Shown: positions 12,001-61,699 of the stretch, piece by piece | How positions within the stretch are numbered: position 1 is the first letter of the stretch | How the letters are laid out: each line of letters opens with the position of its first letter | NCBI GenBank assembly: GCA_040954595.2 | Contig: CM082584.2 | Location: forward strand, 11,996,875 to 12,060,874 | DNA: 64,000 bases | Direction of reading: 5' to 3' | DNA from: Balanoglossus misakiensis | Taxonomy: Eukaryota > Animalia > Hemichordata | The notes under the pieces: generated by a model | What the model saw: only the letters and a program-made list of their open reading frames with translations | Databases searched by the model: none | Told to the model about the DNA's origin: nothing | Position numbers and translations under genes: made by a program

Positions 12001-15000
12001 CCCATGGTTTTTTCAAAAAATGACCAAATTTTGAAAATTCGAAAAGTCGAAAAATCCTCGATTTTCGAACATTTTCCTGAGCTATAACCCATGGTTTTTT
12101 CAAAAAATGACCAAATTTTGAAAAGTCGAAAAGTCGAAAAATCCTCGTTTTTCGAACATTTTCCTGAGCTATAACCCATGGTTTTTTCAAAAAATGACCA
12201 AATTTTGAAAAGTCGAAAAGTCGAAAAATCCTCGTTTTTCGAACATTTTCCTGAGCTATAACCCATGGTTTTTTCAAAAAATGACCAAATTTTGAAAAGT
12301 CGAAAAGTCGAAAAATCCTCGATTTTCGAACATTTTCCTGAGCTATAACCCATGGTTTTTTCAAAAAATGACCAAATTTTGAAAATTGGAAAAGTCGAAA
12401 AATCCTCGATTTTCGAACATTTTCCTGAGCTATAACCCATGGTTTTTTCAAAAAATGACCAAATTTTGAAAATTCGAAAAGTCGAAAAATCCTCGATTTT
12501 CGAACATTTTCCTGTGCTATAACCCATGGTTTTTTCAAAAAATGACCAAATTTTGAAAATTCGAAAAGTCGAAAAATCCTCGATTTTCGAACATTTTCCT
12601 GTGCTATAACCCATGGTTTTTTCAAAAAATGACCAAATTTTGAAAATTCGAAAAGTCGAAAAATCCTCGATTTTCGAACATTTTCCTGAGCTATAACCCA
12701 TGGTTTTTTCAAAAAATGACCAAATTTTGAAAAGTCGAAAAGTCGAAAAATCCTCGATTTTCGAACATTTTCCTGAGCTATAACCCATGGTTTTTTCAAA
12801 AAATGACCAAATTTTGAAAATTCGAAAAGTCGAAAAATCCTCGATTTTCGAACATTTTCCTGAGCTATAACCCATGGTTTTTTCAAAAAATGACCAAATT
12901 TTGAAAATTCGAAAAGTCGAAAAATCCTCGATTTTCGAACATTTTCCTGAGCTATAACCCATGGTTTTTTCAAAAAATGACCAAATTTTGAAAATTCGAA
13001 AAGTCGAAAAACCCTCGATTTTCGAACATTTTCCTGAGCTATAACCCATGGTTTTTTTCAAAAAATGACCAAATTTTGAAAATTCGAAAAGTCGAAAAAT
13101 CCTCGATTTTCGAACATTTTCCTGAGCTATAACCCATGGTTTTTTCAAAAAATGACCAAATTTTGAAAATTCGAAAAGTCGAAAAATCCTCGATTTTCGA
13201 ACATTTTCCTGAGCTATAACCCATGGTTTTTTCAAAAAATGACCAAATTTTGAAAATTCGAAAAGTCGAAAAATCCTCGATTTTCGAACATTTTCCTGAG
13301 CTATAACCCATGGTTTTTTCAAAAAATGACCAAATTTTGAAAATTCGAAAAGTCGAAAAATCCTCGATTTTCGAACATTTTCCTGAGCTATAACCCATGG
13401 TTTTTTCAAAAAATGACCAAATTTTGAAAATTCGAAAAGTCGAAAAATCCTCGATTTTCGAACATTTTCCTGAGCTATAACCCATGGTTTTTTCAAAAAA
13501 TGACCAAATTTTGAAAATTCGAAAAGTCGAAAAATCCTCCATTTTCGAACATTTTCCTGAGCTATAACCCATGGTTTTTTCAAAAAATGACCAAATTTTG
13601 AAAATTCGAAAAGTCGAAAAATCCTCGATTTTCGAACATTTTCCTGAGCTATAACCCATGGTTTTTTTCAAAAAATGACCAAATTTTGAAAATTCGAAAA
13701 GTCGAAAAATCCTCGATTTTCGAACATTTTCCTGAGCTATAACCCATGGTTTTTTCAAAAAATGACCAAATTTTGAAAATTCGAAAAGTCGAAAAATCCT
13801 CGATTTTCGAACATTTTCCTGAGCTATAACCCATGGTTTTTTCAAAAAATGACCAAATTTTGAAAATTCGAAAAGTCGAAAAATCCTCGATTTTCGAACA
13901 TTTTCCTGAGCTATAACCCATGGTTTTTTCAAAAAATGACCAAATTTTGAAAATTCGAAAAGTCGAAAAATCCTCGATTTTCGAACATTTTCCTGAGCTA
14001 TAACCCATGGTTTTTTCAAAAAATGACCAAATTTTGAAAATTCGAAAAGTCGAAAAATCCTCGATTTTCGAACATTTTCCTGAGCTATAACCCATGGTTT
14101 TTTCAAAAAATGACCAAATTTTGAAAATTCGAAAAGTCGAAAAATCCTCGATTTTCGAACATTTTCCTGAGCTATAACCCATGGTTTTTTCAAAAAATGA
14201 CCAAATTTTGAAAATTCGAAAAGTCGAAAAATCCTCGATTTTCGAACATTTTCCTGAGCTATAACCCATGGTTTTTTCAAAAAATGACCAAATTTTGAAA
14301 ATTCGAAAAGTCGAAAAATCCTCGATTTTCGAACATTTTCCTGAGCTATAACCCATGGTTTTTTCAAAAAATGACCAAATTTTGAAAAGTCGAAAAGTCG
14401 AAAAATCCTCGATTTTCGAACATTTTCCTGAGCTATAACCCATGGTTTTTTCAAAAAATGACCAAATTTTGAAAAGTCGAAAAGTCGAAAAATCCTCGAT
14501 TTTCGAACATTTTCCTGAGCTATAACCCATGGTTTTTTCAAAAAATGACCAAATTTTGAAAATTCGAAAAGTCGAAAAATCCTCGATTTTCGAACATTTT
14601 CCTGAGCTATAACCCATGGTTTTTTCAAAAAATGACCAAATTTTGAAAATTCGAAAAGTCGAAAAATCCTCGATTTTCGAACATTTTCCTGTGCTATAAC
14701 CCATGGTTTTTTCAAAAAATGACCAAATTTTGAAAATTCGAAAAGTCGAAAAATCCTCGATTTTCGAACATTTTCCTGAGCTATAACCCATGGTTTTTTC
14801 AAAAAATGACCAAATTTTGAAAATTCGAAAAGTCGAAAAATCCTCGATTTTCGAACATTTTCCTGAGCTATAACCCATGGTTTTTTCAAAAAATGACCAA
14901 ATTTTGAAAATTCGAAAAGTCGAAAAATCCTCGATTTTCGAACATTTTCCTGAGCTATAACCCATGGTTTTTTCAAAAAATGACCAAATTTTGAAAATTC

Positions 15001-18000
15001 GAAAAGTCGAAAAATCCTCGATTTTCGAACATTTTCCTGAGCTATAACCCATGGTTTTTTCAAAAAATGACCAAATTTTGAAAATTCGAAAAGTCGAAAA
15101 ATCCTCGATTTTCGAACATTTTCCTGAGCTATAACCCATGGTTTTTTCAAAAAATGACCAAATTTTGAAAATTCGAAAAGTCGAAAAATCCTCCATTTTC
15201 GAACATTTTCCTGAGCTATAACCCATGGTTTTTTCAAAAAATGACCAAATTTTGAAAATTCGAAAAGTCGAAAAATCCTCGATTTTCGAACATTTTCCTG
15301 AGCTATAACCCATGGTTTTTTTCAAAAAATGACCAAATTTTGAAAATTCGAAAAGTCGAAAAATCCTCGATTTTCGAACATTTTCCTGAGCTATAACCCA
15401 TGGTTTTTTCAAAAAATGACCAAATTTTGAAAATTCGAAAAGTCGAAAAATCCTCGATTTTCGAACATTTTCCTGAGCTATAACCCATGGTTTTTTCAAA
15501 AAATGACCAAATTTTGAAAATTCGAAAAGTCGAAAAATCCTCGATTTTCGAACATTTTCCTGAGCTATAACCCATGGTTTTTTCAAAAAATGACCAAATT
15601 TTGAAAATTCGAAAAGTCGAAAAATCCTCGATTTTCGAACATTTTCCTGAGCTATAACCCATGGTTTTTTCAAAAAATGACCAAATTTTGAAAATTCGAA
15701 AAGTCGAAAAATCCTCGATTTTCGAACATTTTCCTGAGCTATAACCCATGGTTTTTTCAAAAAATGACCAAATTTTGAAAATTCGAAAAGTCGAAAAATC
15801 CTCGATTTTCGAACATTTTCCTGAGCTATAACCCATGGTTTTTTCAAAAAATGACCAAATTTTGAAAATTCGAAAAGTCGAAAAATCCTCGATTTTCGAA
15901 CATTTTCCTGAGCTATAACCCATGGTTTTTTCAAAAAATGACCAAATTTTGAAAATTCGAAAAGTCGAAAAATCCTCGATTTTCGAACATTTTCCTGAGC
16001 TATAACCCATGGTTTTTTCAAAAAATGACCAAATTTTGAAAAGTCGAAAAGTCGAAAAATCCTCGATTTTCGAACATTTTCCTGAGCTATAACCCATGGT
16101 TTTTTCAAAAAATGACCAAATTTTGAAAAGTCGAAAAGTCGAAAAATCCTCGATTTTCGAACATTTTCCTGAGCTATAACCCATGGTTTTTTCAAAAAAT
16201 GACCAAATTTTGAAAATTCGAAAAGTCGAAAAATCCTCGATTTTCGAACATTTTCCTGAGCTATAACCCATGGTTTTTTCAAAAAATGACCAAATTTTGA
16301 AAATTCGAAAAGTCGAAAAATCCTCGATTTTCGAACATTTTCCTGAGCTATAACCCATGGTTTTTTCAAAAAATGACCAAATTTTGAAAATTCGAAAAGT
16401 CGAAAAATCCTCGATTTTCGAACATTTTCCTGAGCTATAACCCATGGTTTTTTCAAAAAATGACCAAATTTTGAAAATTCGAAAAGTCGAAAAATCCTCG
16501 ATTTTCGAACATTTTCCTGAGCTATAACCCATGGTTTTTTCAAAAAATGACCAAATTTTGAAAAGTCGAAAAGTCGAAAAATCCTCGATTTTCGAACATT
16601 TTCCTGAGCTATAACCCATGGTTTTTTCAAAAAATGACCAAATTTTGAAAAGTCGAAAAGTCGAAAAATCCTCGATTTTCGAACATTTTCCTGAGCTATA
16701 ACCCATGGTTTTTTCAAAAAATGACCAAATTTTGAAAATTCGAAAAGTCGAAAAATCCTCGATTTTCGAACATTTTCCTGAGCTATAACCCATGGTTTTT
16801 TCAAAAAATGACCAAATTTTGAAAAGTCGAAAAGTCGAAAAATCCTCGATTTTCGAACATTTTCCTGAGCTATAACCCATGGTTTTTTCAAAAAATGACC
16901 AAATTTTGAAAAGTCGAAAAGTCGAAAAATCCTCGATTTTCGAACATTTTCCTGAGCTATAACCCATGGTTTTTTCAAAAAATGACCAAATTTTGAAAAG
17001 TCGAAAAGTCGAAAAATCCTCGATTTTCGAACATTTTCCTGAGCTATAACCCATGGTTTTTTCAAAAAATGACCAAATTTTGAAAATTCGAAAAGTCGAA
17101 AAATCCTCGATTTTCGAACATTTTCCTGAGCTATAACCCATGGTTTTTTCAAAAAATGACCAAATTTTGAAAATTCGAAAAGTCGAAAAATCCTCGATTT
17201 TCGAACATTTTCCTGAGCTATAACCCATGGTTTTTTCAAAAAATGACCAAATTTTGAAAATTCGAAAAGTCGAAAAATTCTCGATTTTCGAACATTTTCC
17301 TGAGCTATAACCCATGGTTTTTTCAAAAAATGACCAAATTTTGAAAATTCGAAAAGTCGAAAAATCCTCGATTTTCGAACATTTTCCTGAGCTATAACCC
17401 ATGGTTTTTTCAAAAAATGACCAAATTTTGAAAATTCGAAAAGTCGAAAAATCCTCGATTTTCGAACATTTTCCTGAGCTATAACCCATGGTTTTTTCAA
17501 AAAATGACCAAACTTTGAAAATTCGAAAAGTCGAAAAATCCTCGATTTTCGAACATTTTCCTGAGCTATAACCCATGGTTTTATCAAAAAATGACCAAAT
17601 TTTGAAAATTCGCAAAGTCGAAAAATCCTCGATTTTCGAACATTTTCCTGAGCTATAACCCATGGTTTTATCAAAAAATGACCAAATTTTGAAAATTCGC
17701 AAAGTCGAAAAATCCTCGATTTTCGAACATTTTCCTGAGCTATAACCCATGGTTTTTTCAAAAAATGACCAAATTTTGAAAATTCGCAAAGTCGAAAAAT
17801 CCTCGATTTTCGAACATTTTCCTGAGCTATAACCCATGGTTTTTTCAAAAAATGACCAAATTTTGAAAATTCGAAAAGTCGAAAAATCCTCGATTTTCGA
17901 ACATTTTCCTGAGCTATAACCCATGGTTTTTTCAAAAAATGACCAAATTTTGAAAATTCGAAAAGTCGAAAAATTCTCGATTTTCGAACATTTTCCTGAG

Positions 18001-19162
18001 CTATAACCCATGGTTTTTTCAAAAAATGACCAAATTTTGAAAATTCGAAAAGTCGAAAAATCCTCGATTTTCGAACATTTTCCTGAGCTATAACCCATGG
18101 TTTTTTCAAAAAATGACCAAATTTTGAAAATTCGAAAAGTCGAAAAATCCTCGATTTTCGAACATTTTCCTGAGCTATAACCCATGGTTTTTTCAAAAAA
18201 TGACCAAATTTTGAAAATTCGAAAAGTCGAAAAATCCTCGATTTTCGAACATTTTCCTGAGCTATAACCCATGGTTTTATCAAAAAATGACCAAATTTTG
18301 AAAATTCGCAAAGTCGAAAAATCCTCGATTTTCGAACATTTTCCTGAGCTATAACCCATGGTTTTTTCAAAAAATGACCAAATTTTGAAAATTCGCAAAG
18401 TCGAAAAATCCTCGATTTTCGAACATTTTCCTGAGCTATAACCCATGGTTTTTTCAAAAAATGACCAAATTTTGAAAATTCGCAAAGTCGAAAAATCCTC
18501 GATTTTCGAACATTTTCCTGAGCTATAACCCATGGTTTTTTCAAAAAATGACCAAATTTTGAAAATTCGCAAAGTCGAAAAATCCTCGATTTTCGAACAT
18601 TTTCCTGAGCTATAACCCATGGTCTTTTCAAAAAATGACCAAATTTTGAAAATTCGCAAAGTCGAAAAATCCTCGATTTTCGAACATTTTCCTGAGCTAT
18701 AACCCATGGTCTTTTCAATAAATGACCAAATTTTGAAAATTCGCAAAGTCGAAAAATCCTCGATTTTCGAACATTTTCCTGAGCTATAACCCATGGTTTT
18801 TTCAAAAAATGACCAAATTTTGAAAATTCGCAAAGTCGAAAAATCCTCGATTTTCGAACATTTTCCTGAGCTATAACCCATGGTTTTTTCAAAAAATGAC
18901 CAAATTTTGAAAATTCGCAAAGTCGAAAAATCCTCGATTTTCGAACATTTTCCTGAGCTATAACCCATGGTTTTTTCAAAAAATGACCAAATTTTGAAAA
19001 TTCGAAAAGTCGAAAAATCCTCGATTTTCGAACATTTTCCTGAGCTATAACCCATGGTTTTTTCAAAAAATGACCAAATTTTGAAAATTCGAAAAGTCGA
19101 AAAATCCTCGATTTTTGAACATTTTCCTGAGCTATAACCCATGATTTTTTTTCAAAAAATGA
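1..19162. repeat. 87-bp satellite DNA array, ~220 monomers, runs off the left edge of the window
   Basis: Consensus CCCATGGTTTTTTCAAAAAATGACCAAATTTTGAAAATTCG(A/C)AAAGTCGAAAAATCCTCGATTTTCGAACATTTTCCTGAGCTATAA repeats head-to-tail with typically 0-2 differences per copy. The last partial monomer ends at ~19162 and unique sequence follows directly. Confidence 0.99.
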
Positions 19163-21361: not shown

Positions 21362-25229
<3,868 letters not shown>

Positions 25230-25624: not shown

Positions 25625-28600
25625 ATGGCTGTGGCCGAATGTTACACGACAATCTCTAGCCGGTTGCCAAGTGTCAAATTCAAACCTAAAGTCAAGAACG
25701 GCAAAGAAAACAGCACCAAAAATGGACGGCCAGAAATTGAATGCACACCGATTGTGGTTGACTTCAGGAGATTGTTTCAAAGTTCCAAGAGTTCTGTTGA
25801 TGTGTTGCCCGGGGTATGTATCCGTTAGAAAGTGGACTCGATTACTAAAAGGAAAACTAAAGAGGAAATAAAATAGATAAAAAGTAACAAGTGGGTGACG
25901 CTGTTACCATAGCAACAGGAGACGCCAGAGCTCAGGACATGAGCCAGCCGTGCCCCATTCATCTTTAATATCATAGTTTTAACAATTTCACCTGCTCATT
26001 GATACAAACACAACACTTTAAAATTTCCATATAGATGTATAAACCCTACTGTGTGTCACATTACAGGTACCGAATAAAGAACTCTTACACACAGTCATGG
26101 CAGTGTTTGACGTCTGCCTTCCAGACATCACACCTGAGGTGTTATACCCGACCGTCTGTGACAAATGGGCAAGAACCTTGCTACTTGTCAGGGATACAAA
26201 AGGTGAGGCTCCAACAGTGGACACATGATAGTAAGATCCTTCTGACTTGAATATGACTTGGTTTTGTACTATTGTAAAGTGACAATATTATTTGAAAATA
26301 TACTTTATGTGGTAATCGCAGATTGTCAAGCATTGGGTTAATCTACTCATTGATGAACTGTTTTTTTTTTTCTCGTTTTTTTCTACAAAATGTAGGTGTT
26401 ATAACTGAAATGAATAACAAGAAGAAAGCTGATGATAAAAGTGCAGAAGATGACAAAGATAAACCGCAAGTAAATGGTGAGGATGATGTCAAAGCTGATG
26501 AGGACAAAGAGGAAGAAGAGAAGGCTGGCAAGTTTGCTGATGTTTTCAGTGACACTGATCATGATGATGAGGAAGAGGAGGAAGATGAAGATGGCAGGTA
26601 CATTACGCATTAACACATAAACAACATACTAGTACTAGTTGAGACTTTTGAAGGAAACAATTTTGAAATGCTACTCAGGTCAGCAATCATCTGAAAACTA
26701 TTGTTCAATTTATCAAAGTAACGTTGACAGTTGACTTCATCTTTTGTTGCAGTGAAAGCGAAGATGAGGACCATTCAGAAGGAGTCAACGATTTCCTTAA
26801 AATTGTGCGGAAAAGAAGGAAAAAGAGGCACAGGGCAAAGGAAGTGAGAAACGAAGTGCCGGAAGAGTTGATTGGGATAGAAAATCGTCTCCTGGCATGC
26901 GCTACGTGGGAAAGATCCAATGTGTAAATATTGGTGTTAATTAATTAACTTCTGTCTGTTGCAGAGTTGAGAATTTCAACATGATAAGAGAAGCAAAGCT
27001 GAAGAGATTAATTATGTGATGATGTTTTCTTCCCTAGGAGACCTGGAGAGAAGATTGTACAGATTAATTTGTTGGGAGTGAGGAAGAGATACAGAAAGTG
27101 GGGACTGGGGAAATTTATGGTGCAGGTAAGAAGAATAACAGCATTCAACTACAGTCGTAAACATTTATTTCTCGTTGTACATGTGGTTGCCTGCCATCCA
27201 AAAGTAACATCACCGGTACATCAGCTAAACATCTGATTAGTGTTGAAGTATCAGTGAATCAAACAATGTCAAATTATCTTTTCTTATCCTCTTGATTATT
27301 TTGTTTTCCAGTCGTTAAAAGATCCGTCCTTGGTTGGCCAGTATGACGCCATAGTGGTGTATGCTGATCACTCAGCTGTCAATTTCTTTGCTCATTACGG
27401 ATTCAGCGATGACATCATACTGAACAGCAAATTCAAAGATTTAGCAGATAACTGGACCAACAGTACGCTCATGTGCTACTTACCTCCATTTACATGTAAG
27501 TTGTTAAATCAAAACGTTCTTTTCTATTTCATATTAAACAAGACCAGCCTGATTAATATAATTGTGGGTGTGTTATCTGTTTCAGCCCAGACAATGCGCG
27601 GAGAGAGTGCCAGTGATCCAGTGTTGGACATCAGAGAGATGGAATTAGAACTGCAGAAATGGACGGAAAAGAGTCGGGAAGCTTATCAGAGTCAGTTTGC
27701 GTGCGCCATGCGAATGAGAAACGAAATAATCACCCTCAGGGCATTGGTAAGGATTTTTACGTCTGCCGTAAAGTTAATTTCAGAAACTGTGGCCAAATTT
27801 GCATAGGTGACTGTATATGTATTGATCTTTCCGTCACAGTAATCTGACACTCATTTATTAATGTTTCCCCATTGTTCTCATTGAAGGTTGCTTCCCAGCA
27901 AGACATCATCACCTACCTACAGAGTGAAGTAGAAAAACTACAGCATTCTAAGTTCCATATTGGTAAGTTTGTCTATTAAAGATTAGGGTTCCTTCCAGAC
28001 CTGTGCCATGTAGACGTACCTACCCCCGGAACAATCTGACAGGCACAGTACTGATGAGTGTTTTGTGAACCTTTACACTGGCGTTCAGCCATTTTATACA
28101 CTGTAACTGTTCTATGTGCACTTCTTCTCTGTAGAGAAAGAATTCCTACAGTACAGACTTCTGACACTAAGAGCTGGCCTGGCACCTCTTCTGAGCGACA
28201 GTTCAGATGATTCTATGAAAGGTAAGTGAAATTATGTACATGTATTGGAAAGATGACTAACTCGCTGAATTTTTTTTCTAACAGCGGGGGTATTCACAGG
28301 ATTTCTCACTCATCTGTTTGTATTTTTTGTATGGCAGACGAGTCAACCACAGACAGCTTACTGAAGGATTTGGAAGAACAAGTTGGTGTTTTGAAACTTG
28401 CCAGAAAACACAGTGAAGAAAACACTACACCAGGTAATGCTACGGTGGCCCATATGTACCACCGTTGTTTTATTGTCAAGTGTATGAGATCTAACGATAA
28501 TTCCATCACTCCATACCTCACACTGTAACATATTCCCATAGCTGACACAACCTTTTAACCTCCATTTTGTTTTTTGTTTGTGTTTGTTTGTCACATGTTG

Positions 28601-29729
28601 GGTTTGTTTGTTGTCACGTTTGTGCACTTTTGCCAGAGGACGGTGTGGATGAGTTGTTGGATGTTCAGACTGATGACGCACACTCTTCTTCAGACTGGCA
28701 GATCATCGAAGAATTCAAACAGAGTCTCAAACAGGACTTGTCAGTCACACAGAAGGCAGAGGTCACTCTCTTGAAAAAGGTGGGTAAAAACTGAGCTGGG
28801 AAGGTCATAAGGAGTTTTGAAGTGCATAGTTCACAAGATAACATTTACGGGCTAAATAAAGTTTTGTTCTCACCATGTGAATTTTCCTGATAACAACCGA
28901 GTCTTTCCCCTACCATCTGTTTTAGGCACAAATGACCCAGAGTGGAATTGAACAGTACAAGTCCAGAATACGAAGCCTGGTCGACCCCAGCATGTGTACA
29001 AAACTGTATTACTGTGGAAGTCTGGAGAGGCCGCACAGACTCGAGTTGATTCTGAAGAATGGTTTCACAGAGCAAGGTAGTTATATTGAAGGTCTGTGTT
29101 GAGAGTTGTTATATGCCTTTGCACTGAAACCTGTCTAAGCTAAGGTTTATGAATCTGCTGTTTTTATTTATTTTCAGATTTCTCACATGGAGAGTATGGA
29201 GTTGGTCTGTACTTTTCACAGTATGCATCCAAAGCAGCCCAATTTTCTGCTGTAAGTATTTTACTCTAATTTACCAGAAAGCTTTCTTTACATCAGTCAG
29301 TAATTATATTGATTTATAAATTACTGGTTATTCATAATTTTCATAATATGCTCTCTCACTTCTTATACTTCCCCGCCCCCTAGCTTGGCAAGATACTTGT
29401 GGCAGAAGTTGGTCTTGGTCATACAGCAACTGTTATAAAGAAGGAAGCAACTCGACGCGCACCACCTATCGGACATGATTCCATCCTGGCAAGTGATTTT
29501 AGATACTAAATCTGGTCAAACATATAGCGGATTAAAAAATAATGCATTCAAATGAATTTCAAGCTACAAATGTAGATACTATATTTAATTTGTGTATTTT
29601 GTTTTGCAGACAAAAGGTCGTCTTATACAGGGTATTGGTGATTCATCAGGAGGTTGCTGTCAGGAGTACGTTGTATTTCATCCGTCCCAAGCCTGGCCTG
29701 TGGCTCTGATAGAATACAAATTGGTCTGA
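25625..29729 (+). CDS. Uncharacterised ~660-aa protein: GCN5-like GNAT domain + coiled coil + PARP/ART (tankyrase-like) catalytic domain
   Basis: 15 phase-compatible exons (25625-25813, 26067-26202, 26396-26597, 26753-26923, 27038-27125, 27312-27495, 27586-27746, 27887-27962, 28135-28221, 28338-28433, 28637-28779, 28926-29076, 29178-29251, 29384-29488, 29610-29729) total 1983 nt with no internal stop. GNAT motifs: QINLLGVRKRYRKWGLG, VYADHSAVNFFAHYGFS, STLMCY. PARP motifs: LYYCGS, ILKNGF, GEYGVGLYFS, VAEVGLG, PPIGHDSI, QEYVVFHPSQAWPVALIEY. The start codon is less certain than the internal exons. Confidence 0.85.
25903..25916. promoter_or_regulatory. RFX X-box in intron 1 of the GNAT-PARP gene
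   Basis: GTTACCATAGCAAC fits the X-box consensus GTNRCC-N(0-3)-RGYAAC exactly. Confidence 0.65.
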
Positions 29730-30109: not shown

Positions 30110-30856
30110 TCATGCACTGTCACTGAAAAGTCCAGGAAACCAGAACAATTTTTCTGGTTTGGCCTGTTCATCCACCCAGGCAAGTCCTTCTTTGACCATG
30201 TAGTTGATTGCTAACTTGGCACGCTCATCCTCCCATCCTAACTGTTTCTTCATCTGTGAAATAGAGGTGTAGCCAGTGTCCTTTGCTGACTGCAGAACGC
30301 TTGTGTGGTCCATGTTCAGTTCTGCTGGCACGGACTGGACCAAGTAGTTGTTCCCATCTCCAACTTTCAGTAGGGTGAAGCCGTTCCCTAGAATTTTGAG
30401 TTTCTTGATAGCTCGCATCAAATCGTCCGCGCTGACGTCTTGCGCTTGTTTTGATTTCCCCCTGGTCGTCCTGACTTTGGTCAGGAGTTCGTTTAGATAC
30501 AGCAGTCCACCATTCCTGTGCTGTGTTGCCAGGCACACCTCGATAATCTGGACACCTAGTTCGTAGTAGAAATCACCAACACCAAGCATTTCTGACCAAA
30601 AGCCCTTATTAGAGGCTAACGGGTCAACACCGATAGTTGCACACATCTCTTGAAATTGAGTCCTGAATTCGGGATTCTTACGGATCTCGTTCTTGTGTTT
30701 CCCAGCAAAATCTTCCAGGTTTGTTCTGAAGGCTTCAAGTTGTTTTGACATCTGGGCAAGTTGATCTTCGGCTATGGAGGTCCCCTTGTCTTTGAATTTG
30801 GCCTCGGCAAGTCGCTTTTTATTGATCGCGCCGACCCCGCCTACTCTTCGATGCAT
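30110..30856 (-). CDS. SNF8: ESCRT-II subunit SNF8/VPS22/EAP30, single coding exon, 248 aa
   Basis: MHRRVGGVGAINKKRLAEAKFKDKG..., FQEMCATIGVDPLASNKGFWSEMLGVGDFYYELGVQIIEVCLA, LVQSVPAELNMDHT, EGLAWVDEQ...FWFPGLF all match SNF8. The ATG at 30856 is used instead of the upstream TTG in the ORF track. Confidence 0.97.
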   Translation of the reverse strand: MHRRVGGVGAINKKRLAEAKFKDKGTSIAEDQLAQMSKQLEAFRTNLEDFAGKHKNEIRKNPEFRTQFQEMCATIGVDPLASNKGFWSEMLGVGDFYYELGVQIIEVCLATQHRNGGLLYLNELLTKVRTTRGKSKQAQDVSADDLMRAIKKLKILGNGFTLLKVGDGNNYLVQSVPAELNMDHTSVLQSAKDTGYTSISQMKKQLGWEDERAKLAINYMVKEGLAWVDEQAKPEKLFWFPGLFSDSA

Positions 30857-31344
30857 TTTCAAGTCTTAAGTGATATTAAACCCGCACTTAAAAGGAAATG
30901 AACTGAGTAATACCAGTAAATATCTATGCCTCTTACCGCAGTGGAGCTTCCCCGGTGCAGGTACAGATAAAATGAACCTTGAAATTGTAGACTGTCTGTT
31001 CGTAGAAATGGGTTTGGCGCTCCTATTGTTACTAAGTCGCCTAAATTTAAAGAAAAATAATCTATAACATCAAGACAGCTCCTGTAAATGACATTGTCGT
31101 GATATTTTGTAAATTTACTGAATTAAATTAAATTTATTACAAACGTATCTGTTGTTGAATATACAGCGCTGTACGTCGAATAATAGCTCGCCCTCAACGG
31201 TGTATGTTATAGTAAGCGCTATCTCAATGACGTCACAGGGAAACATGGAAATGTAAACACACCTGTTGCCAGAAGAAGACTAGCGTCTATGACAACCATT
31301 TTTAACGCACTTTTATTTCTTTGACGGATCAAGGAGAACCCGAT
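30857..31344. promoter_or_regulatory. Bidirectional promoter region SNF8 / myristoylated Ubl gene with CRE, forkhead and X-box-like motifs
   Basis: 488 bp between divergent ATGs. TGACGTCA 31228-31235, GTAAACA 31253-31259, GTTGCC half-site 31265-31270, degenerate X-box GCGTCTATGACAAC 31283-31296. Confidence 0.55.
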
Positions 31345-33837: not shown

Positions 33838-36800
33838 TCAATCCACTGCTGTTTTCAGACTATGTGAATCAATGTCAGCTGTGGTTACCACACTTCCTGT
33901 GGTGAAGATGGCCTTGAAATCCTACAATGACGAAAAAAAGCAATATAAATTATAATTACAGAATTGTTTTTTGAGGGATAGAAAATTATTTGGAAAATTA
34001 ACAGAGTGGCCCGAAGGCTGCTACATGATAATGCAACAACAGTGAAATTTAAATCTTTGCTCATAAAAAAAGGAATTCTGGGATTTTGTACTTACCGGGG
34101 TTTTGTATCTCTTGCACATCTGCAGACAATCCTGTATGATTGGATGTTCAATCAAAGTCATAAACAGCACAGGCTGGCTGCTGTCGCTGCCTAGGTCCTG
34201 GTAAACCCCTGCCATGCGTTCCTTGGAAAAGGTGTCCTGGGGGTCAGAGGTCACGCTGAACCGGTGGCTGTCGCCGAGGCGAGGCTGTCCATGATGAAGA
34301 ACCTGAAGTGGTAAACATGGCAGGAGGAAAGTTTGAGTTAGATGTGTGAGGAAATATCAACCACATAATTTGGCTGGTAAAGTGTCTGAAATCAGTAAAT
34401 AAATATGCAGTGAAATACACTCACGATATTCAGTGCTTCTAACGGTACTTTAGCGCTGATGGCCGACTCTGGGATGTCTTCCGTTAGCTGTGCTGGTTCT
34501 TCGCCAAGTGGCTCATCAAGTTTGAGTTCACTGTCACCAACATCGTCCTTCATTGCATCAACAACCTATAAACCAAACACAACGTGGTTTTAGTGTCTGA
34601 CTGTGGCCTCTAACACAATTTGGTGGGCTGTGATCAATCTGAGAGAGGTCGATCCAAGATTAAACAAATTTCACTCTGACAGTGCCAAAAGATCTGATGG
34701 CCTCTCTTTCATTTCTTTCTTTCATCACAGGCCAAAACCATCTCACAACTGATATGGCAGACCCGTACATCCCCACTCCCACACACATCAATCTCTCACC
34801 TCTTTCATCATTTGCAGTTTTTCTTTCTGTGACTGGTCCAACTCTGGCTCCTCTTTCTTGGGTCTTGGCATGTGAGTGCCAGACGCTACACTGAGTGCTC
34901 GGTAGAACCCAATCTGATAGTCTGGGTCAATGGCATAGTATAACAGCTGAAAAAAATTACCACAGTAAACAAAAAATTTTGTTGTTCCAGCCAGTGTCAT
35001 TTTGAAAGAAATGGTGTCATTGATACTAATGGTAGCATTTTCAAAACTTTGAAATTTGAGTACTCGATCTCGATTTTGAACTAACCATATTGACATAGTC
35101 TAACATTGGTGGCGCTGTGTCCAAGTCAGCAAAGATATCAAAGAGTAATTTCTGGACATTGCCAGTTCTGTCAAAGGCATACGGTTCTGATGGGCTTTCT
35201 GGGGAAGGTGGGGGTGCTTCCTGTCCATACCAAAGCTCAACCTGCATTTGGGTGGAGAAGAAAAAAAAGTTTAGGTTTTCAGATTAACTCCGTAGTAGAT
35301 TAAACATTTGGAGAAGTTTCATCTTGCATATAAAGCAATTATTTTTATCTGCCAACCTACCTGTTCGAACTGCTGTCTGTTGACCTGTCCTGTCCCCAGT
35401 GTATCAACAGCTTTGAATTTCTCCAGTGTTTCCAGCAGCTGTGCCTGGGTTGGCTGCGGCCAGGGATGGGTGCACTGCAGCAGGAATGTTCTGAAGTCGA
35501 TGTACTCAGAGTCTGGTGACAACTGAGATGAAACTTGCTCCAACTGAAACAAACAAGTATCGACAATAAAGATCAGATCTTAATACACAGAAAGGGTTTA
35601 TATTATTAAACTAGCTGTTCATCTTCACCCTTACCCTCACCAAATTACTGCCTCTGTCCACAACAACAGAGTTAGACCACGGCTTAGAGGTAAATATGGG
35701 GTTGTGTGATGGAAAATAAAAAAGATTGCTGACCTGAGATGGTGTTGCGTTCATCCACATATCAGGCAAAGCCTCCATACCATGCTGTGAAAACAAAGTA
35801 ATGAGAAATGTGAATGTATTTATCTTTGGTTTAAAATGTGTAACATAATAAGCAATTTACAGATCATCCTCTCATCGACCTAAAACTGATCAAAGTCAAG
35901 GACAAGATACTCACAGTCAATGCAGTCAGGTCTGACATGGTATCGATGAATCCTTGGTTGGAGATAAAACCTGATGGTGCTGTCTTCAGGAACTGCTTCC
36001 GCAAGTTCTTCATCTGGTCCACCGTGAAGATGTCCGGACAGATCTGCTCCACTGGTGAGGGTCTGGGAGGAGGACTTGGGGTACGGAATACCCGGACACC
36101 CTGTGGGGGGAAAGGGGGGGGGGGTGATGAAGTGTTATGTTGATGAGTAAAAACATATCATACTGGGACAAATTTAACAATGATAAATGAAATATTCTCC
36201 CTACCTCCTCAATTAAGAACTCTTTCTGATGAATAATCAGTTTCTGTTTGATCTTCTGTCGACTCTCGACTGCTTCGCGGGCAATAACGCATAATTCATC
36301 AATGCTAAAAAAACAAGAAAAGATAATAAAGTTATTAATGATAACACCAATAAAGATGAACTGACAAACTGACAACACACGACTATATTATGGTTCATCC
36401 CCAATGTTTTTAATGGTACATGGACATTTATATGTTTCAAAACAAGGGAACGGGTTGACAAATGGCAAGCAATAAATACTGTACTCTGAACTCTAATTTT
36501 TGCCATGGTTACCTTTGGATTTCTGCCTGGAATCTAGCTCCCAGCCAATCATTCATGTCTGTGTACACGCCTTCGGATTTTCCCTTCAACTCTTGCAAGA
36601 CCTGAATACCGTGTATTCGGATCAAATCAAGACGAGTCTTCACAGCAGATTCTATACATACACGTAGTAGGATAAAATACTGTTAAGATTGTACATGTCA
36701 TTGACAAGTTCACTATATCAGAACAGAAATCATCCAGTGATGCTACACACATACAACTCTACAAACTGACCTTCTTCTGCTATGGCAGCAAAATATTCCT

Positions 36801-39800
36801 GTTTCATCTTCTCCTTCAATTCCTTCTTGGCCTTCTCTTCAGGACTTTCCTCTGAAAATACAACAAAAATTCAAAAATTAAACTTTATATTAAACTACAT
36901 GGCCCAGAGATAATTGCTAAATTCTTCAGAGTATATCTGTCACAGATTATGCAATGAACTCTGATCATGTCACTATTCTCTCTTTAATCTCAACACTGAC
37001 CTGGTGGAGGAGTAGGTGCAGGTTCAGCAGAGGGAGCCCTCTTGCCTTTCTTCGGCGACTTGGGCGATTTAGATCGAGCTCTGGGAGAAGCCCCGCCCGG
37101 ACTCTTGCCTCTCTTCCCAGTAGGACTCTTCTTTCCTCCCGGACTTTTCCCTCTCTTTCCGCCTTTCTTTCCAGCTGCTGCTGCCTTCTCTTTTTCCTTC
37201 TCCTTTTCCAGTTCTTTCTGCCTCTCTGCTTCTTCTTCAGCATCCTTGGCAGCTTGTTCGGCAGCAGCCTGGAAAAATGTGAGAGCATTAAACGAAAAAC
37301 GGAAATCAGTGACTGAAAACCCGGCCATCACTGAGAGTCTGTGGCACAGTTCATGGGGAAGCTATACTGTCTCAAAATGGAGGCTGACAGCAGAAAGCAG
37401 CAATCAGGGGAAAATACCAACTCAAACAAACAGAACCAAGACAAAACAGGGAACATAAAACAATAATTGAGAAATGTCACCATGTCTACCCCTCAATGTT
37501 TTTTTATTTCCCACAATCTTTTCCCTCCAACTTTCAAAAAACCTTACATTCAATAATTAATTATAACCTTACAACGAATTAACATTTGTACCCTCTTTTG
37601 CAATTAGACTGACACCAACATGGAAGTCCACCTCCCAGTGGTGTCTCTTCTAGACTAGAATATATTTATCAAAAAGGGTGGAAAATTTAACAAAACTTAA
37701 CACTGTTATCGTTACCACCACAGTAAGGGGAAATTGTTGTAAAAGAAACTTAGGTGGTATTCTGTGCAGTATCAATGATGATATGCATGTGCATGCATGT
37801 TCTCTGATTTGCCCGTATAAACACATGCGGGAACAGCTATGAATGAAGTAGTCAAGGCTCTAGACACACTTGTGCACTACATCTCATTTACAAGTCAGAT
37901 TGCGATCACAGCCACAGTGCACAGAACAGAGTCTAGAGTCTCGAATCTAACTGCAGCTCCATGCAATGAAGGGATATTTTTACTGCCTCAATCCCATGCT
38001 TATCACCATGAAACACAGAACACAACAATGATAAAAAAAACATTCTGCGGTGACCAAACACACAATTTATGCTTTACTTAAAACACAGTCCTTAAAACAA
38101 GCATGCAAAGCTATAAACTTTACTTTAAGAACACACAAACACAAGAGCTCCAAGTATCAAACCAGGAAGCACTATTATTTCTCGGTGACATAAAACAGCA
38201 AATTTGATCAATAAATGACTGTGGTGGTAGTTGGAACCCCTGTGTTCTTTTGTACAACGATATATACACATATTCATGCACTTACCAGATAGCATCGTAT
38301 GCAGTCACTTGACTAAATTAGTGTGCAAGCATTAATTGGACACAAGACAACGGAAAAAGACAGACAAAGACAGTGGTGAAATACGAATACACCAAAAAGT
38401 GCAATTACGAAAAATCAAAATCACATCAGGAAGTAAGTCATGAGAGAAATTGAAAAGAGAGTTACACATTCCAGATGCAAAATGTTTTGGTTTGTTTTTG
38501 ACAAAAAAGATTTTCCCATAAACGAGAACTCATGGGATGAGGATCTTTAATTTAACTTTTTTAAAAACATGCTAGTTCATTTTTGTCATTTTTTGCATAA
38601 CAACAATTGCTGTTGAAGAAAAACGATGTTTCAGTGGGAAAGTGTACTAGGACACCAGAATTTTTTTACAGTATAAAGCCAGACACATCATTATATTCTT
38701 TAAAAATGTAAATGAACAACTAGACAAACATTGCCCAGTGATGCATTCTCCACACCAGCGATCAATTTCATTATCTACACCATAGATTTATGAGACAATT
38801 TTAGCGGCCAATGATCAAAGCAATCCCTGCTGTACCCTAAAAACAAAACAACAATTTGCCCGGTGATCGACCTTTTAACTAAGAAAGCAGAAAAGCTGAC
38901 CCTAAAAAAGCATGTTCTCAGAAATCAAATGTATGATTGTTGTTAGATGGTTAGTCTTGCAGTGGTGCGACAACTGTGGTTACAGTGAAAAGTCGGTAGA
39001 GTTGTTGACACCCAAATCTCACACACTGTGTAAAACAGGACAAATTGCAAACATGCTTACCATTTCTGTCACTTTGTAGACAGCAAAGTTATGTGCTTCA
39101 AAGAGAATCTATCAGGGAAAGAAAACAAGTACATGTAATCAGATGTTTCAACATTTTACGGCTAAGCAATTAACCTATTGTCTCATCAATACATGTACTT
39201 CTCAGTACATCTACACTCTTCCACCATAAAAAAGCAAGGAGTCACCATCACAGAATCCCACACATCCTAAAAAAACTCACCCTTTCATCGGGATCACTGG
39301 GTGGCTGAGGAGTTTCCTGACTATCATCCAGCATTCCAGCGCCACCCTTCTCCTTCTCCTTTTCCTTCTTTCCTGCACGGCTCTTGTTTCCTTTGTCTCC
39401 CTTACCAGCGGAAGCCTGAAGTGGGAAGAATCCCTCCGACGAGGTTGGGCGTCGAGGGACAAGCGGAATTCTGGAAAAGCAGGAAAGAGGAAATGAATAT
39501 CCCTATACAGTAAGATATGCTTTCATAAGGGCAGGATTATAATTTACACAACTTTGCAGAGTTGAAAACAATTTTCAAATCACTACAGAACAGCCCAATG
39601 ATGCAAGTAGCCACGGCAATGAGTAGATTCTTACCTCGATTTCTTCTCATCGTCATGATCTTCATCATCATCGTCTTTGCCTTTCTTTCCTTTAGCTGAG
39701 GTCTGCGATGGTGTCTGTGGCAACCCGGACTCGCTGCCGGTCACACTTTTGGCTGACTCCGGTCGTTCGGTCACCGGCAGCTCTATCAGTGGTATTCTGG

Positions 39801-42800
39801 CGTACTCTTCATTCAGTTCATCAGGTATTTTGCCTTCCATGCCGTTATAGTAATCTCGCAGCAGACGTAGAGTGTCTTGGTATCTATCAATTTCACTCTG
39901 TTACATTAACAATAACGGAACAAGAGAGTTATCAGCTTGACAATATAGCAAGCACGCATCAAAGAGGGAAAAATACTATTTTTTGTCTGAATTTAACATC
40001 ACAAAGTCCCCAGGCTGAAAATTTTGCCAATAATATTAACCTTTTGCCCCATATCCCTTGTAAATGGTTCCAAAGTACCCTATGTATCAACTGGACAAGG
40101 TGACTTGTTTGTTTACCTGCATCAATGTAACATAGTGGTTTGTTAGTAAGCCCATTCTGTCCTCTAACCATCCTTCCTCCATCACCATTTTCCTCTCATT
40201 CTCCGCATCTTCTTTTCGGGTGTCACAGATATCCCATAATTTTTCTTTAAGATCCTGTTCACGAAGGGGGGGGGGGGGAAATGAAAACAAAAGATTCAGG
40301 TTGTTTCAGTTTGAGCCACTTATGGTAATGCTCTGAAATGGTAGCAGCTTCCTTGGAAGCCAGAGATATTTCCCAAATGCAAGTGTGGCACTAGTCTGAG
40401 ATACATGCATGCGAGCGTTGTTTTCAAATGCCTTCATCAAATCAACGAAACAAAGGAAATCTTCACCTCAATTCTTTTATGCAACTCCGCTTTCGTCTCT
40501 TCGTCCTCTCTCATATCATCCGGGACTTCGTTGTAATCATTCTGCCACTGTGTTACAAACTCCTGCTTTATATCCGGCCTCTTCAGGAAATCCGCAAAGA
40601 CGTTGCGGATCCTGTGGAAGTAGCGGTAAATGTTCTCGCGTTCTCCACGCACTGCACGGAATACGTGCTTGCTGCAGTTGATGTAGGATGACTCCACAGT
40701 TTCCCAGTGTGGGGCCAAGATATGCGCCAGCTCCTACAAGAGACAGAACCACAATAATTGAGTATGTAGGAAAATAATGTTACTAACGGCTGAATGCCAC
40801 GATTACTATTTTTTCTCACAGCCCTAGCTGAAAGGTACAAGAATATGGATCCTACTAACCGGATCGATAGCCTCATCCACATATTCCCAGTCTTCTGATC
40901 CGGGCTGCGGTGGTGGGGGACCAGGTGGCTCCAGGGGTTCCGGTTCTGGCTCTGGTTCCGGGGTCTTGGATTTCCTTCCAGACTTCCCTCTCTTTGGAGA
41001 TTTGGATTTTTCTCTCTTGGGAGATCCTGGATTTTGTGATTCACAGAGTAAGCATAAGTCAGTTATCATTATGGTTTGATGCAGTGTTGGTGTTAATTGC
41101 ACTGTTAGTGTTTATGATCTATACTTATGTCAATGTGTTATGTTTTTTTGTGCAGGGTGTTAAAATTCCATCTTTCCTGTTAATGCCTCTTTTTGAAGAA
41201 AAGAATTGGGATTTTTTTGTTTGCCGTGTGAGTACAGCAGAGATGCATATAACTCCAGTGGTTAATGTGTAAAGCTTGCTTGTGTCAATTGTTAGGTTTG
41301 GATTTGAGGGTTGATTGTGGTATGTGGTTGTTATGCTTGGAAGTTAGAAGTGAGAATGTGATTTTACACGCAAAGGCTTTAAAAGTAGAGTTGGTTTTCT
41401 ATGTGGTCAACCATATCACCCCAGAATTCCTGCACAGTGCGATTTTTCTTGTCTCGCCATGGGCAGATGTGATCTACGGTGTTCTCACTAAATGTCACTT
41501 TTCACAGACAACTGACAGGTACGTTGCCTATTCTTTTCTGTGAGGCAGGACAACTGGGGCGAACAGGTTAAGTGGTATAGGTAGACTGATGTGCTTAGGA
41601 ACCGCAGCTTGCATTGCGTGTGACACCAACTTACGTGACTTCTTTCCTTTAGCTTTGTCTTTTCCTTTGTCTGCTGAGGTACGTGCATGCATTGTGGGGG
41701 GTAGGCGGTACAAGAACAGGGTTAAAATACAAATACAGGGCGGGATACATTAAAGGTAAAAACCACACAGCAACAAGGGTAAAGGGTGGGGCAGCAACAC
41801 CACACAACACAGAGCAGATAGACCTTTATAGCTATACAAGTCATCAGAATGATGTATGTGCACTAAAATGCAGAATCACTTAGATTTTTATCAATATTTT
41901 CCACAACAACAAAATAGAGCCAGTACATCCTTAATTGTCATTTGGCAGACACACATTCAGTGGATGGTGCATATTCTGTGTATAAAACTATGAACTATGT
42001 GTACAGTTTGACAGAGTGACAGGGCAGTCCTGCCAAAAGATAAAACACTTTATTTATAATACACAAAGTGTGAATACTATTATTGTCAAAGTAGCAAAAT
42101 CCTACAGGTCAGTAAGAAATAGTTGAGTGTGCATACAAAATGTTTCATATAAGCCACAAGTATGTGCATTTATCAACATGTAGTGCTTGTCAAGACACAT
42201 TCAAAATTTACCAATGTGACTTTGACATCTGGCCCATTACTACTGCATCAATACAAAGTCTTCAAACCTAGATACAGTTTCGTACAGTCCAGATATATAC
42301 GGCCAAATTCCAAGTCAACATTTCAATACATCAGTGCATCAACTTACCCTTTCGGTCACCAGACGGCGTTCTCTTGGGACTACCGGCACGTTTAGGGCTG
42401 GCACTACCACTCCGTTTCCCCTTACCACTTCCCTTTGGCGAGCCTTCTCTCTTGGGTGATCCTGTCCTCTTCGGGGAACCTCCCCTCTTTGGAGATCCTC
42501 CTCTTTTGGGGGAGCCACCCCTCTTGGGAGAACCTGTATAACAGTGAATCAATGCTTATTCACATGGAACATTAACCAAACATTTTCCTTCAACATCCCT
42601 GCAAACAGTTCAGTAAAAGTATTACTAACGAAAGACTAGATCAAGTTAAAAAGGTACAAATGCATTCACTTACCACCTCGAGAGCCTTTCTTGGAGCTTG
42701 GTCTATCAACGCTTGCCTGAAATGAACCACAATGGTTGATGAAGGCAATATTAACACAATGTATACACATGGTACGCCAAATATCAAAATGACAATTCTG

Positions 42801-51800: not shown

Positions 51801-52180
51801 TTGGAGATACATGTATTAGTATTACATTTCCCCTTGCCAGACTGGATTCCCCCTCAAAATATTCTGGCAAATGGGGACATACAATTACATGTATTGGGGG
51901 GGGAGGGGGTATTACACCTGTTATGACCACTTGTATGATTTGACCGTTAGGTACATTTTTGTAAAAAACGCCTGATGTTTTATACTGTTTTTCACAAACG
52001 GTCTGTCAAACACTACATTTCGCACTGGGCCCATAATCGATAGATACTAGGTGAATGACAATACACAGTGTTGTATCATGGCTCCATGGTTGTATGTACG
52101 GTACGTTGGCAATGAGACTTACCCACTCTCTTGGCGAGCTGCAGCTCATCATTGAGCCATCTGCACAATATATCCGTCAT
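33838..52180 (-). CDS. SPEF2: Sperm flagellar protein 2 (KPL2; ciliary central-pair protein), many exons
   Basis: N-terminus MTDILCRWLNDELQLAKRV..SFAKEFSTGYLIGEVLQKYQLQDDF, then SRLNNFTRLEPTLHLLGVPFD (CH-like domain), coiled coils, adenylate-kinase-like ACFLGKLFSGKTT and GWIMDGFP, LAPHWETVESSY, KAELHKRIE, WLEDRMGLLTNHY, and an EF-hand-like C-terminal region. The last exon DFKAIF...KTAVD ends at TGA 33838-33840. Not every internal exon boundary was traced. Confidence 0.93.
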
Positions 52181-52662
52181 TTTGCCTGTCTTTTATATCA
52201 AAACAGTCGGTTTAATTATTTTACGGACATCATCATAAGAAAATAACGTAAATTCCTTGCAGTCCGGACGGGACGTGCAGAATACAATGCACATAAACAA
52301 AAATCCAATATGGCCGCGTCGACATGGCAACAACACTTCATGTCAAAACTTCTCTGATTGGCTGATTGAGGGAGCCCTAATTCCATAACAGAAAACCTGA
52401 TAGGCCGTTTGCGTTGTGAACTGTGTGAAAATTTCGTAGAAATTTTTATAAAATATAGCCGCAAAGGTTATTTTATAGGTTAAATAATGAAGATTATTGC
52501 TTTTATGATTAAAACATACTCTTTGGATAGAAGATAATGCACATTCATTTCTCTCGAAAAGTTAAAGTTCAAAAGTCAAAGGTTATGTCAATTCGAGACA
52601 TGTGTTAACTTCCTGATCGCTTCACTTTCGCGTAGAATTTACTGAATACGTCCAATTTCAGG
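52181..52662. promoter_or_regulatory. Bidirectional promoter region SPEF2 / EIF2D with X-box and CCAAT motif
   Basis: 482 bp between divergent ATGs. GTCGACATGGCAAC at 52318-52331 matches GTTGCCATGGCAAC at 12/14; CTGATTGG lies at ~52354. Confidence 0.65.
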
Positions 52663-61542: not shown

Positions 61543-61699
61543 CAAAGTCACGCGACGTAGTGAAGGTCATATCGCCTCGCAAAACTGTCAACAAAGCTGA
61601 TTGCACAAAAGAGTGAAAGTGTGTGGTAGAGATAAGGGCGAGAGTCGACTGCGTCATTGTAGTTTCGTACGGGGGAAATTCGCACAAGAGTACCCGGCG

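What the first reader, a model, noticed from the sequence alone, without database searches (positions are those of the whole stretch)
25625..29729. GCN5-type acetyltransferase fused to a tankyrase-like PARP domain in one gene
Seen: 15 exons splice without a frame break into 660 aa. Established: the N-terminal half follows the recalled yeast Gcn5 HAT core (EIVFCAISSTEQVRGYG...LKD...TYADNYAIGYFKKQGF...TLMQC versus QINLLGVRKRYRKWGLG...LKD...VYADHSAVNFFAHYGF...TLMCY). The C-terminal ~150 aa follow the recalled tankyrase PARP domain (LFHGS...IIHKGF...GMFGAGIYFAENSSKS...CRVTLG...PPGHHSV...EYVIYRGEQAYPEYLITY versus YYCGS...ILKNGF...GEYGVGLYFSQYASKA...AEVGLG...PPIGHDSI...EYVVFHPSQAWPVALIEY). A predicted coiled coil (27586-28433) joins them. 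None of the named human PARP family members or GCN5/PCAF has this architecture as far as I know. Inference: one protein could couple acetyl-CoA and NAD+ sensing, or acetylation and ADP-ribosylation. The ORF track shows only fragments of it.
Basis: partly seen in the sequence, partly recalled or inferred. Interest (0 to 1): 0.9.

Follow-up and report, generated by a model that had tools for sequence, protein, structure and literature searches.

The report
Ancient acetyltransferase and PARP-like fusion protein
This gene encodes one protein with a GCN5-like acetyltransferase half and a PARP-like half, a pairing kept from a single-celled alga to frogs with no study found; it likely acetylates proteins in maturing sperm, while the PARP half, missing its key histidine, likely binds rather than transfers NAD.

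Summary
Confirmed: 15 exons splice to 660 aa (one GC-AG intron), 79% identical end to end to a Ptychodera protein. It is one member of an unstudied, apparently single-copy eukaryotic family: a complete GCN5-type fold split by an acidic insert, a coiled coil (predicted homodimer), then a PARP fold. Both domains occur together in hemichordates, echinoderms, molluscs, corals, amphioxus, sharks, coelacanth, amphibians, a filasterean and a glaucophyte. The PARP part is missing from several lineages; no amniote row appeared. Neither active site is canonical. The acetyl-CoA motif is kept (167/170) but Gcn5's catalytic Glu is mostly replaced (Glu in 13/169). The PARP triad is C-Y-E: His in 0/96, Glu in 91/95. 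It is not a tankyrase or a KAT2 member. The zebrafish gene named as its orthologue is a spermatid marker in two single-cell datasets, and intron 1 holds the window's only perfect RFX X-box. Best reading: a dimeric acetyltransferase of the spermatid/cilium programme with a His-less, probably non-transferring PARP module. Activity and substrate are untested. The scan noted the same family earlier in Trichoplax (e1-7272226).

The parts
25625..29729 (+). Whole coding span, 15 exons, 660 aa: GNAT (split) - coiled coil - PARP-like
   Evidence: splice model; 78.6% to P0001 over residues 1-660
25742..26201 (+). N-terminal half of the GCN5-type fold (aa 40-108; exons 1-2)
   Evidence: weak alignment to the first helices of PCAF; model of P0029, residues 53-373, aligns to yeast Gcn5 99-262; coordinates
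26202..26870 (+). 107-aa insert inside the GNAT (aa 109-215): acidic tract with a conserved F-S-D-type motif (26533-26550) and a basic helix (26805-26834)
   Evidence: insert 52-316 aa (median 111.5) in 114 members, motif in 73 of 114; low pLDDT over most of it
26871..27494 (+). C-terminal half of the GNAT (aa 216-323): Gln241 at the Gcn5 Glu173 site (27060-27062), acetyl-CoA motif R252-x4-G257 (27093-27110), Y-A-D motif (27360-27368)
27624..28169 (+). Coiled coil (aa 337-414), predicted parallel homodimer
   Evidence: 84-residue helix; one search score 0.55 versus best control 0.00; 99% identical to P0001
28693..29720 (+). PARP-like domain (aa 483-658), triad C541 (29013-29015), Y573 (29210-29212), E640 (29664-29666); Ala581 at the nicotinamide Ser site, Phe584 at the stacking Tyr site
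29489..29609 (+). GC-AG intron 14, needed to keep the frame into the Glu-bearing last exon
   Evidence: homologues run straight through this junction
25903..25916 (.). Perfect RFX X-box-type 14-bp motif in intron 1, 278 bp after the ATG
   Evidence: only exact match in 64 kb; 0.01 expected for the strict pattern, 0.33 for the general one, in 44.7 kb; consensus letters recalled

Best explanation
The gene encodes one protein that joins a GCN5-type fold, a coiled coil and a PARP fold lacking the catalytic histidine; it is predicted to form a homodimer that likely acetylates protein lysines in the RFX-driven programme of maturing sperm and other flagellated cells, while the PARP module likely acts as a ligand-binding accessory rather than a transferase. 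Shown: gene structure, both folds, residue patterns and vertical inheritance. Predicted: dimerisation through the coil. Inferred: acetyl-CoA binding and lysine acetylation without a fixed Glu base, binding of NAD+ or an ADP-ribose-like ligand by the PARP module to tune or place the enzyme, and RFX control.
For: GNAT: yeast Gcn5 is the top structural match (Z 14.5, rmsd 2.9, 161 of 164 residues; ctSAGA Gcn5 tied at 14.4). GCN5/PCAF are also the top Foldseek and sequence hits. The acetyl-CoA motif [RQ]x4[GA] is kept in 167 of 170 rows; Arg248 in 163 of 170 and the Y/H-A-D Asp in 166 of 179. The GNAT is better conserved than the PARP domain in 10 of 10 comparisons with both GNAT halves. Every named full-length loss drops the PARP module and keeps the GNAT: chelicerates 3 of 3, parasitic flatworms 2 of 2, ray-finned fish 2 of 2, lamprey, Sycon. 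PARP: His in 0 of 96 rows and Ala at the Ser site in 92 of 98. In the human table of PMC7955679, the PARP-fold domains without His are PARP13 and TASOR (inactive), PARP9 (listed as mono, on ubiquitin) and undetermined ones, and His loss cut diphtheria toxin activity at least 70-fold. Tyr (88 of 98) and Glu (91 of 95) are kept, so the pocket is still under selection. Cell context: si:dkeyp-50b9.1 marks 4 of 4 spermatid clusters and 0 of 6 others in PMC8961980, is a spermatid marker with FC 5.06 in PMC13262623, and is among 25 male-up genes with spag16, dnah6 and tekt1. A perfect X-box lies in intron 1, and the flagellar gene SPEF2 in the same window has a 2-mismatch copy about 140 bp before its ATG. 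Dimer: score 0.55 versus best control 0.00, runs agree in at least 54% of contacts, pLDDT at least 63. The mark was reached by 21 of 30 solved pairs and 0 of 23 single chains in microbes, and by 17 of 29 and 0 of 30 in eukaryotes.
Against: No activity was measured. Gcn5's general base (Glu173, PMC3195501 passage) is Glu in only 13 of 169 rows, with Asp or Glu at this or the +2 site in 43 of 169, so the GNAT may be weak or dead. Near-invariance of the PARP Glu fits catalysis as well as binding. The expression data are for the zebrafish gene: its orthology rests on NCBI names given to P0190 and P0199, its protein was not retrieved, and both ray-finned fish proteins seen lack the PARP domain. Fold changes in PMC8961980 are modest (log2 0.37-0.88, with 66-73% of other cells positive). 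The X-box was spotted by eye first, and it also lies about 670 bp from the ATG of the divergent HDAC gene. A tick keeps the gene although tick sperm lack flagella (recalled). The dimer pass may reflect generic likeness to solved coiled coils: only 1 of 7 eukaryotic pairs without an older solved relative reached the mark.
Confidence: 0.45

Rival explanations
1. Both halves are active: the C-Y-E domain is a histidine-independent mono-ADP-ribosyltransferase or NADase, making the protein a bifunctional writer.
For: Glu in 91 of 95 rows and Tyr in 88 of 98, from the glaucophyte and filasterean to amphibians. Most human mono-ARTs in the PMC7955679 table have replaced this Glu, so the fold does not need it. 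Family-specific near-invariant Arg610 (89 of 97) and Arg625 (87 of 92) could replace the His contact (not mapped in 3D). Full PARP fold: Z 20.2, rmsd 2.8, 170 aligned to TNKS2.
Against: His in 0 of 96 rows, the nicotinamide Ser site is Ala in 92 of 98, and the stacking Tyr is Phe in 59 of 94. His-to-Ala is the usual way to inactivate PARPs (recalled). The domain is repeatedly lost.
Confidence: 0.2
2. The protein is a nuclear, Gcn5-like histone acetyltransferase for spermatid chromatin remodelling, unrelated to the flagellum; the acidic insert would bind histones or protamines.
For: GCN5/PCAF are the closest relatives by sequence and fold. The conserved acidic tract and an NLS-like basic helix sit in the insert. 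Expression is post-meiotic. The gene is kept in a tick.
Against: No bromodomain or PCAF N-terminal domain in Pfam scans of 12 full-length homologues. The X-box points to the RFX programme. The family is in unicellular flagellates (flagellation recalled) that make no spermatids.
Confidence: 0.18
3. Both domains are pseudoenzymes, and the dimer is a scaffold that binds acyl-CoA or nucleotides without catalysis.
For: The Glu173 site is variable (Q55, H51, D15, E13, others) and the PARP His is absent.
Against: Both acetyl-CoA motifs are near-invariant. The site pair 241/279 is mostly H/H (44) or Q/Y (29), positions that N-terminal acetyltransferases use for catalysis without Glu (recalled).
Confidence: 0.15
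4. Two adjacent genes were merged by the reader, or the architecture is an annotation artefact.
For: No transcript of this genome was seen, and some annotated isoforms or relatives stop before the PARP domain (P0007, P0022, P0029).
Against: 63 of 187 sequences carry both domains in one chain. Among them are uninterrupted ORFs on transcript-sized contigs: P0023, 701 aa on 2,876 nt, and P0037, 637 aa on 2,508 nt. Introns between the domains are 116-203 nt with in-phase sites.
Confidence: 0.02

Closest known systems
GCN5/PCAF (KAT2A/B) histone acetyltransferase domain
   Same: Whole HAT fold (Z 14.5, 161 of 164 aligned), acetyl-CoA motif A, the Y-A-D...F-F...G-F motif and the C-terminal T-L-M motif.
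   Different: Split by an acidic insert of about 110 aa; catalytic Glu mostly Gln or His; no bromodomain or PCAF N-domain; followed by a coiled coil and a PARP fold.
Tankyrase-1/2 (PARP5a/b), PARP4 and PARP3 catalytic domains
   Same: PARP fold (TNKS2 Z 20.2, PARP10 17.9, PARP13 17.3, PARP3 16.7, PARP4 16.4), short loops, triad Tyr and Glu; PARP4, PARP3 and TNKS1 are the best sequence hits.
   Different: His replaced by Cys/Gly/Ser/Ala; Ser site is Ala; about 20 residues after the second strand that tankyrase has are absent; no ankyrin or SAM domain.
Pseudo-PARPs PARP13 (Y-Y-V), TASOR (L-Y-Q), LRRC9 (Y-V-K), plant RCD1
   Same: PARP fold without the first-strand His (table in PMC7955679; RCD1 Z 17.0 and TASOR Z 14.0).
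   Different: PARP13, TASOR and LRRC9 have also lost the Glu; this family keeps it almost invariantly, giving a C-Y-E triad absent from that table.
KKT23 (kinetoplastid GCN5-like acetyltransferase)
   Same: A GCN5-derived GNAT outside the KAT2 family (Z 12.6, rmsd 2.6, 161 aligned); its paper's title reports H2A acetylation (listing).
   Different: A kinetochore protein with no PARP domain reported in the listing; homology to this family beyond the fold was not tested.

Membership tests
GCN5/PCAF (KAT2) | GCN5-type HAT fold | tested here: met
   (model of homologue P0029)
GCN5/PCAF (KAT2) | Acetyl-CoA motif A [RQ]xxGxG | tested here: met
   present in the window (R252-G257); relaxed form in 167 of 170 rows
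GCN5/PCAF (KAT2) | General-base Glu (yeast Glu173) | tested here: not met
   Gln241 in the window; alignment to PCAF; Glu in 13 of 169 rows
GCN5/PCAF (KAT2) | C-terminal bromodomain (feature recalled) | tested here: not met
   none in Pfam scans of 12 homologues; the C-terminus is occupied by the PARP fold
GCN5/PCAF (KAT2) | Histone acetyltransferase activity | not testable with these tools
   needs an assay
PARP/ARTD family | PF00644 above gathering score and PARP fold | tested here: met
   P0001 37.2 bits versus cut-off 26.7; Foldseek E 7.6e-11; Z 20.2
PARP/ARTD family | H-G-[ST] motif in strand 1 | tested here: not met
   C-G-S in the window; His in 0 of 96 rows
PARP/ARTD family | Triad Tyr and Glu | tested here: met
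   Y573 and E640; 88 of 98 and 91 of 95 rows
PARP/ARTD family | NAD+-dependent ADP-ribosyl transfer | not testable with these tools
   needs an assay
Tankyrases | Ankyrin repeat clusters and SAM domain (feature recalled) | tested here: not met
   none in Pfam scans
Tankyrases | H-Y-E triad | tested here: not met
   C-Y-E
Known pseudo-PARPs (PARP13, TASOR, LRRC9) | Loss of both His and Glu | tested here: not met
   His lost, Glu kept
RFX target genes | 14-bp X-box near the start of the gene | tested here: met
   25903-25916; PMC4498915 passages describe a 14-bp inverted repeat near the TSS; letters recalled, TSS unknown
RFX target genes | RFX binding or dependence | not testable with these tools
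   needs ChIP or knockdown data

The most novel reading that the evidence does not exclude
The C-Y-E domain is the founding member of a histidine-independent class of eukaryotic ADP-ribosyltransferases. This near-LECA family would then be a single-chain writer of both acetylation and ADP-ribosylation, coupling acetyl-CoA and NAD+ in building the sperm flagellum, kept in aquatic spawners and lost in amniotes.
Probability: 0.15. Interest if true: 0.88.

Novelty: new variant of a known kind. Interest (0 to 1): 0.62.

Why it matters
It adds an old, broadly distributed PARP-fold clade that the two evolutionary surveys checked do not mention by its partner domain. Its C-Y-E triad, with His always gone and Glu nearly always kept, is a direct test of which residues the PARP fold needs. 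It also adds an unstudied GCN5-derived acetyltransferase tied to spermatids. Salamanders carry the two-domain form and ray-finned fish a PARP-less form, so the contribution of the PARP module can be tested in lab animals.

Tried and rejected
No whole genome is held for this window, so synteny and paralogues were not examined. No RNA holder was listed, so the junctions rest on homologues. Single-exon Pfam scans were too short: best PARP E 0.11 on exon 13, no GNAT hit among 10 pieces. Pfam and fold evidence therefore comes from homologues P0001 (79% identical) and P0029; the window's own spliced protein was analysed only locally. The protein atlas did not complete. No relative was confirmed in viral contigs (58 pattern matches), prokaryotic genomes (30) or, for P0118, metagenome contigs (592); these scans use short patterns and are weak negatives. 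The gene name was not found in the searchable supplements of PMC4199137 (file 2 not searched), PMC12759076 (4 files not searched), PMC10810531 or PMC8524669, so expression in non-sperm ciliated cells is open. Six LOC identifiers gave 0 papers. One review on ADP-ribosyltransferase evolution was not held. NCBIfam gave only sub-threshold GNAT hits. The PPR hits are sums of weak repeat matches and were rejected. One search mislabelled three PARP positions by one residue; one search supersedes it. No tree with reference PARPs or GCN5s was built because none was among the fetched proteins. A functional link to the head-to-head HDAC gene was considered but could not be tested.
Full report
Observation. 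The 15 exons splice to 1983 nt, 660 aa plus stop, through 13 GT-AG introns and one GC-AG intron. The product is 78.6% identical over its full length to a Ptychodera flava protein and groups with Ptychodera and Glandiceps at 100/99 support, so the window is probably hemichordate. No RNA of this genome was available, so the junctions are supported by homologues: 13 of 14 lie in stretches aligned to P0001, and the other lies in a variable linker present in P0002. A two-gene reading is excluded by 63 of 187 examined sequences carrying both domains in one chain (94 GNAT only, 22 PARP only, 8 neither; many are fragments). These include uninterrupted ORFs on transcript-sized contigs.

Anatomy. Residues 40-108 and 216-323 together form a complete GCN5-type fold. 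A model of the crinoid homologue P0029 (83-row alignment, pTM 0.76) matches yeast Gcn5 at Z 14.5, rmsd 2.9, 161 of 164 residues, ahead of non-GCN5 GNATs at 12.8 or less; Foldseek and phmmer also rank GCN5/PCAF first. Between the halves is a 107-aa insert, 38% acidic; the family keeps an insert of 52-316 aa, with an F-S-D-type motif in 73 of 114 members. Residues 337-414 form a long helix that is predicted to pair in parallel: score 0.55 against best control 0.00, runs agreeing in at least 54% of contacts, pLDDT at least 63. That mark was reached by 21 of 30 solved pairs and 0 of 23 single chains in microbes, and by 17 of 29 and 0 of 30 in eukaryotes, but by only 1 of 7 without an older solved relative, so it may show likeness to known coils. 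Residues 483-658 are a PARP fold: PF00644 above cut-off in P0001, TNKS2 at E 7.6e-11 and at Z 20.2, rmsd 2.8, 170 aligned.

Active sites. Gcn5's general base is Glu173 (PMC3195501, one passage read). That site is Gln241 here and Glu in 13 of 169 family rows, while the acetyl-CoA motif is kept in 167 of 170. In the PARP domain tankyrase's His aligns with Cys541. Across 99 domains, isoforms and cluster members included, the site is C69, G12, S7, A6, Q1, M1 and never His; Tyr is kept in 88 of 98, Glu in 91 of 95, and the nicotinamide Ser site is Ala in 92 of 98 (a few protist rows are poorly aligned at the His site). The table of human ART-like domains in PMC7955679 (introduction part 1 and passages read) has no C-Y-E triad, and its His-less members have mostly lost the Glu as well.

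Distribution. Both domains occur in hemichordates, echinoderms, a nemertean, a brachiopod, molluscs and a coral, in amphioxus, Macrostomum, chondrichthyans, coelacanth and amphibians, and in Pigoraptor (Filasterea) and Cyanophora (Glaucophyta). A tree of GNAT plus coil for 57 rows, chosen from 213 as named or long representatives, recovers hemichordates, echinoderms, molluscs, vertebrates, chelicerates and parasitic flatworms as clades. This fits one vertically inherited gene. Presence of the PARP domain needs 11 changes on that tree, 9 of them forced by starred branches; some PARP-less rows are fragments and the tree is only midpoint-rooted. With the fusion present in both outgroups, repeated loss is the simpler reading, which is an inference. 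PARP-less annotated proteins come from chelicerates, parasitic flatworms, lampreys, ray-finned fish and Sycon. No amniote was seen, which is weak evidence.

Cell context. NCBI names the Callorhinchus and Polyodon members after zebrafish si:dkeyp-50b9.1. That name occurs in one paper's main text, among 25 male-up genes (10.1101/650218, passage and first part of section 24 read). In PMC8961980 (supplement rows, passages and section 13 read) it marks clusters 0, 2, 4 and 6, the four spermatid clusters, and none of the six others, with log2FC 0.37-0.88. In PMC13262623 (supplement rows only) it is a spermatid marker with FC 5.06; a Sertoli sub-cluster row is not significant, adjusted p 1. The zebrafish protein probably lacks the PARP domain, so these data speak for the GNAT-coil core. 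Independently, intron 1 of the window's gene holds the only exact match in 64 kb to the recalled RFX X-box consensus (0.01-0.33 expected by pattern in the non-satellite 44.7 kb). PMC4498915 (passages read) describes a 14-bp X-box near the TSS of RFX2 targets in spermiogenesis. The neighbouring SPEF2 gene has a 2-mismatch copy about 140 bp upstream of its ATG, one of four 2-mismatch sites in the region. The motif was noticed before it was tested, and it could serve the divergent HDAC gene.

Mechanism. The most likely reading (0.45) is a coiled-coil dimer whose GNAT is the indispensable enzyme, acetylating protein lysines in the RFX-driven spermatid/cilium programme, with a dispensable His-less PARP module that binds NAD+ or a related ligand without transferring it. 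Rivals are a truly bifunctional enzyme (0.2), a nuclear spermatid-chromatin HAT (0.18), a double pseudoenzyme scaffold (0.15) and an artefact (0.02). None of the biochemical steps is shown.

Novelty. Databases annotate both Pfam domains automatically on proteins named 'uncharacterized'. Seven literature searches found no description of the family (listings only). Term searches of two PARP evolution surveys, PMC2964712 and PMC4245714, found no 'acetyltransferase', 'GNAT' or 'GCN5' in the main text; their supplements and most subscription journals were not seen. It is not a KAT2 member or a tankyrase, because defining features fail, but it works from the same folds. I read it after my own family, residue and expression analyses, and it agrees on the fusion and the missing His. 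The spermatid link, the X-box, the dimer prediction and the loss pattern do not appear in the lines of it that were shown.

Noticed in passing
window about 22600-25229, minus strand: A class I histone deacetylase gene (PF00850 on two exons; HDAC3-like N-terminus by recall) lies head-to-head with this acetyltransferase-like gene, ATGs about 396 bp apart, so the promoter is probably shared. Synteny could not be tested.
   Followed up: partly
window 30110-30865, minus strand: Single-exon SNF8/EAP30 (ESCRT-II) gene, tail-to-tail with the finding (PF04157, E 4.6e-60).
   Followed up: partly
window about 34800-52180, minus strand: SPEF2 (sperm flagellar 2) gene (SPEF2_C, SPEF2_D5, ADK and CH_2 hits), with a 2-mismatch X-box at 52318 and a 1-mismatch one at 53529.
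   Followed up: partly
window about 52900-56600, plus strand: eIF2D/ligatin-like gene (Pre-PUA and SUI1 hits), divergent from SPEF2.
   Followed up: no
window 61601-62494, plus strand: Single-ORF protein with three tandem ubiquitin-like domains.
   Followed up: no
window 1-19162: AT-rich satellite with an 87-bp unit and 99% matches between copies (scanned from 15000; composition and repeat ORFs extend it to the window start); it produces long spurious ORFs.
   Followed up: no
window 25897-25901: A TGACG (CRE half-site, recalled) lies just upstream of the X-box in intron 1; chance not assessed.
   Followed up: no
protein P0123 (ENA, 677 aa) and P0119: Family-type PARP domain behind a long low-complexity N-terminus with no GNAT detected, the only candidates for loss of the GNAT rather than the PARP; may be gene-model errors.
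   Followed up: no
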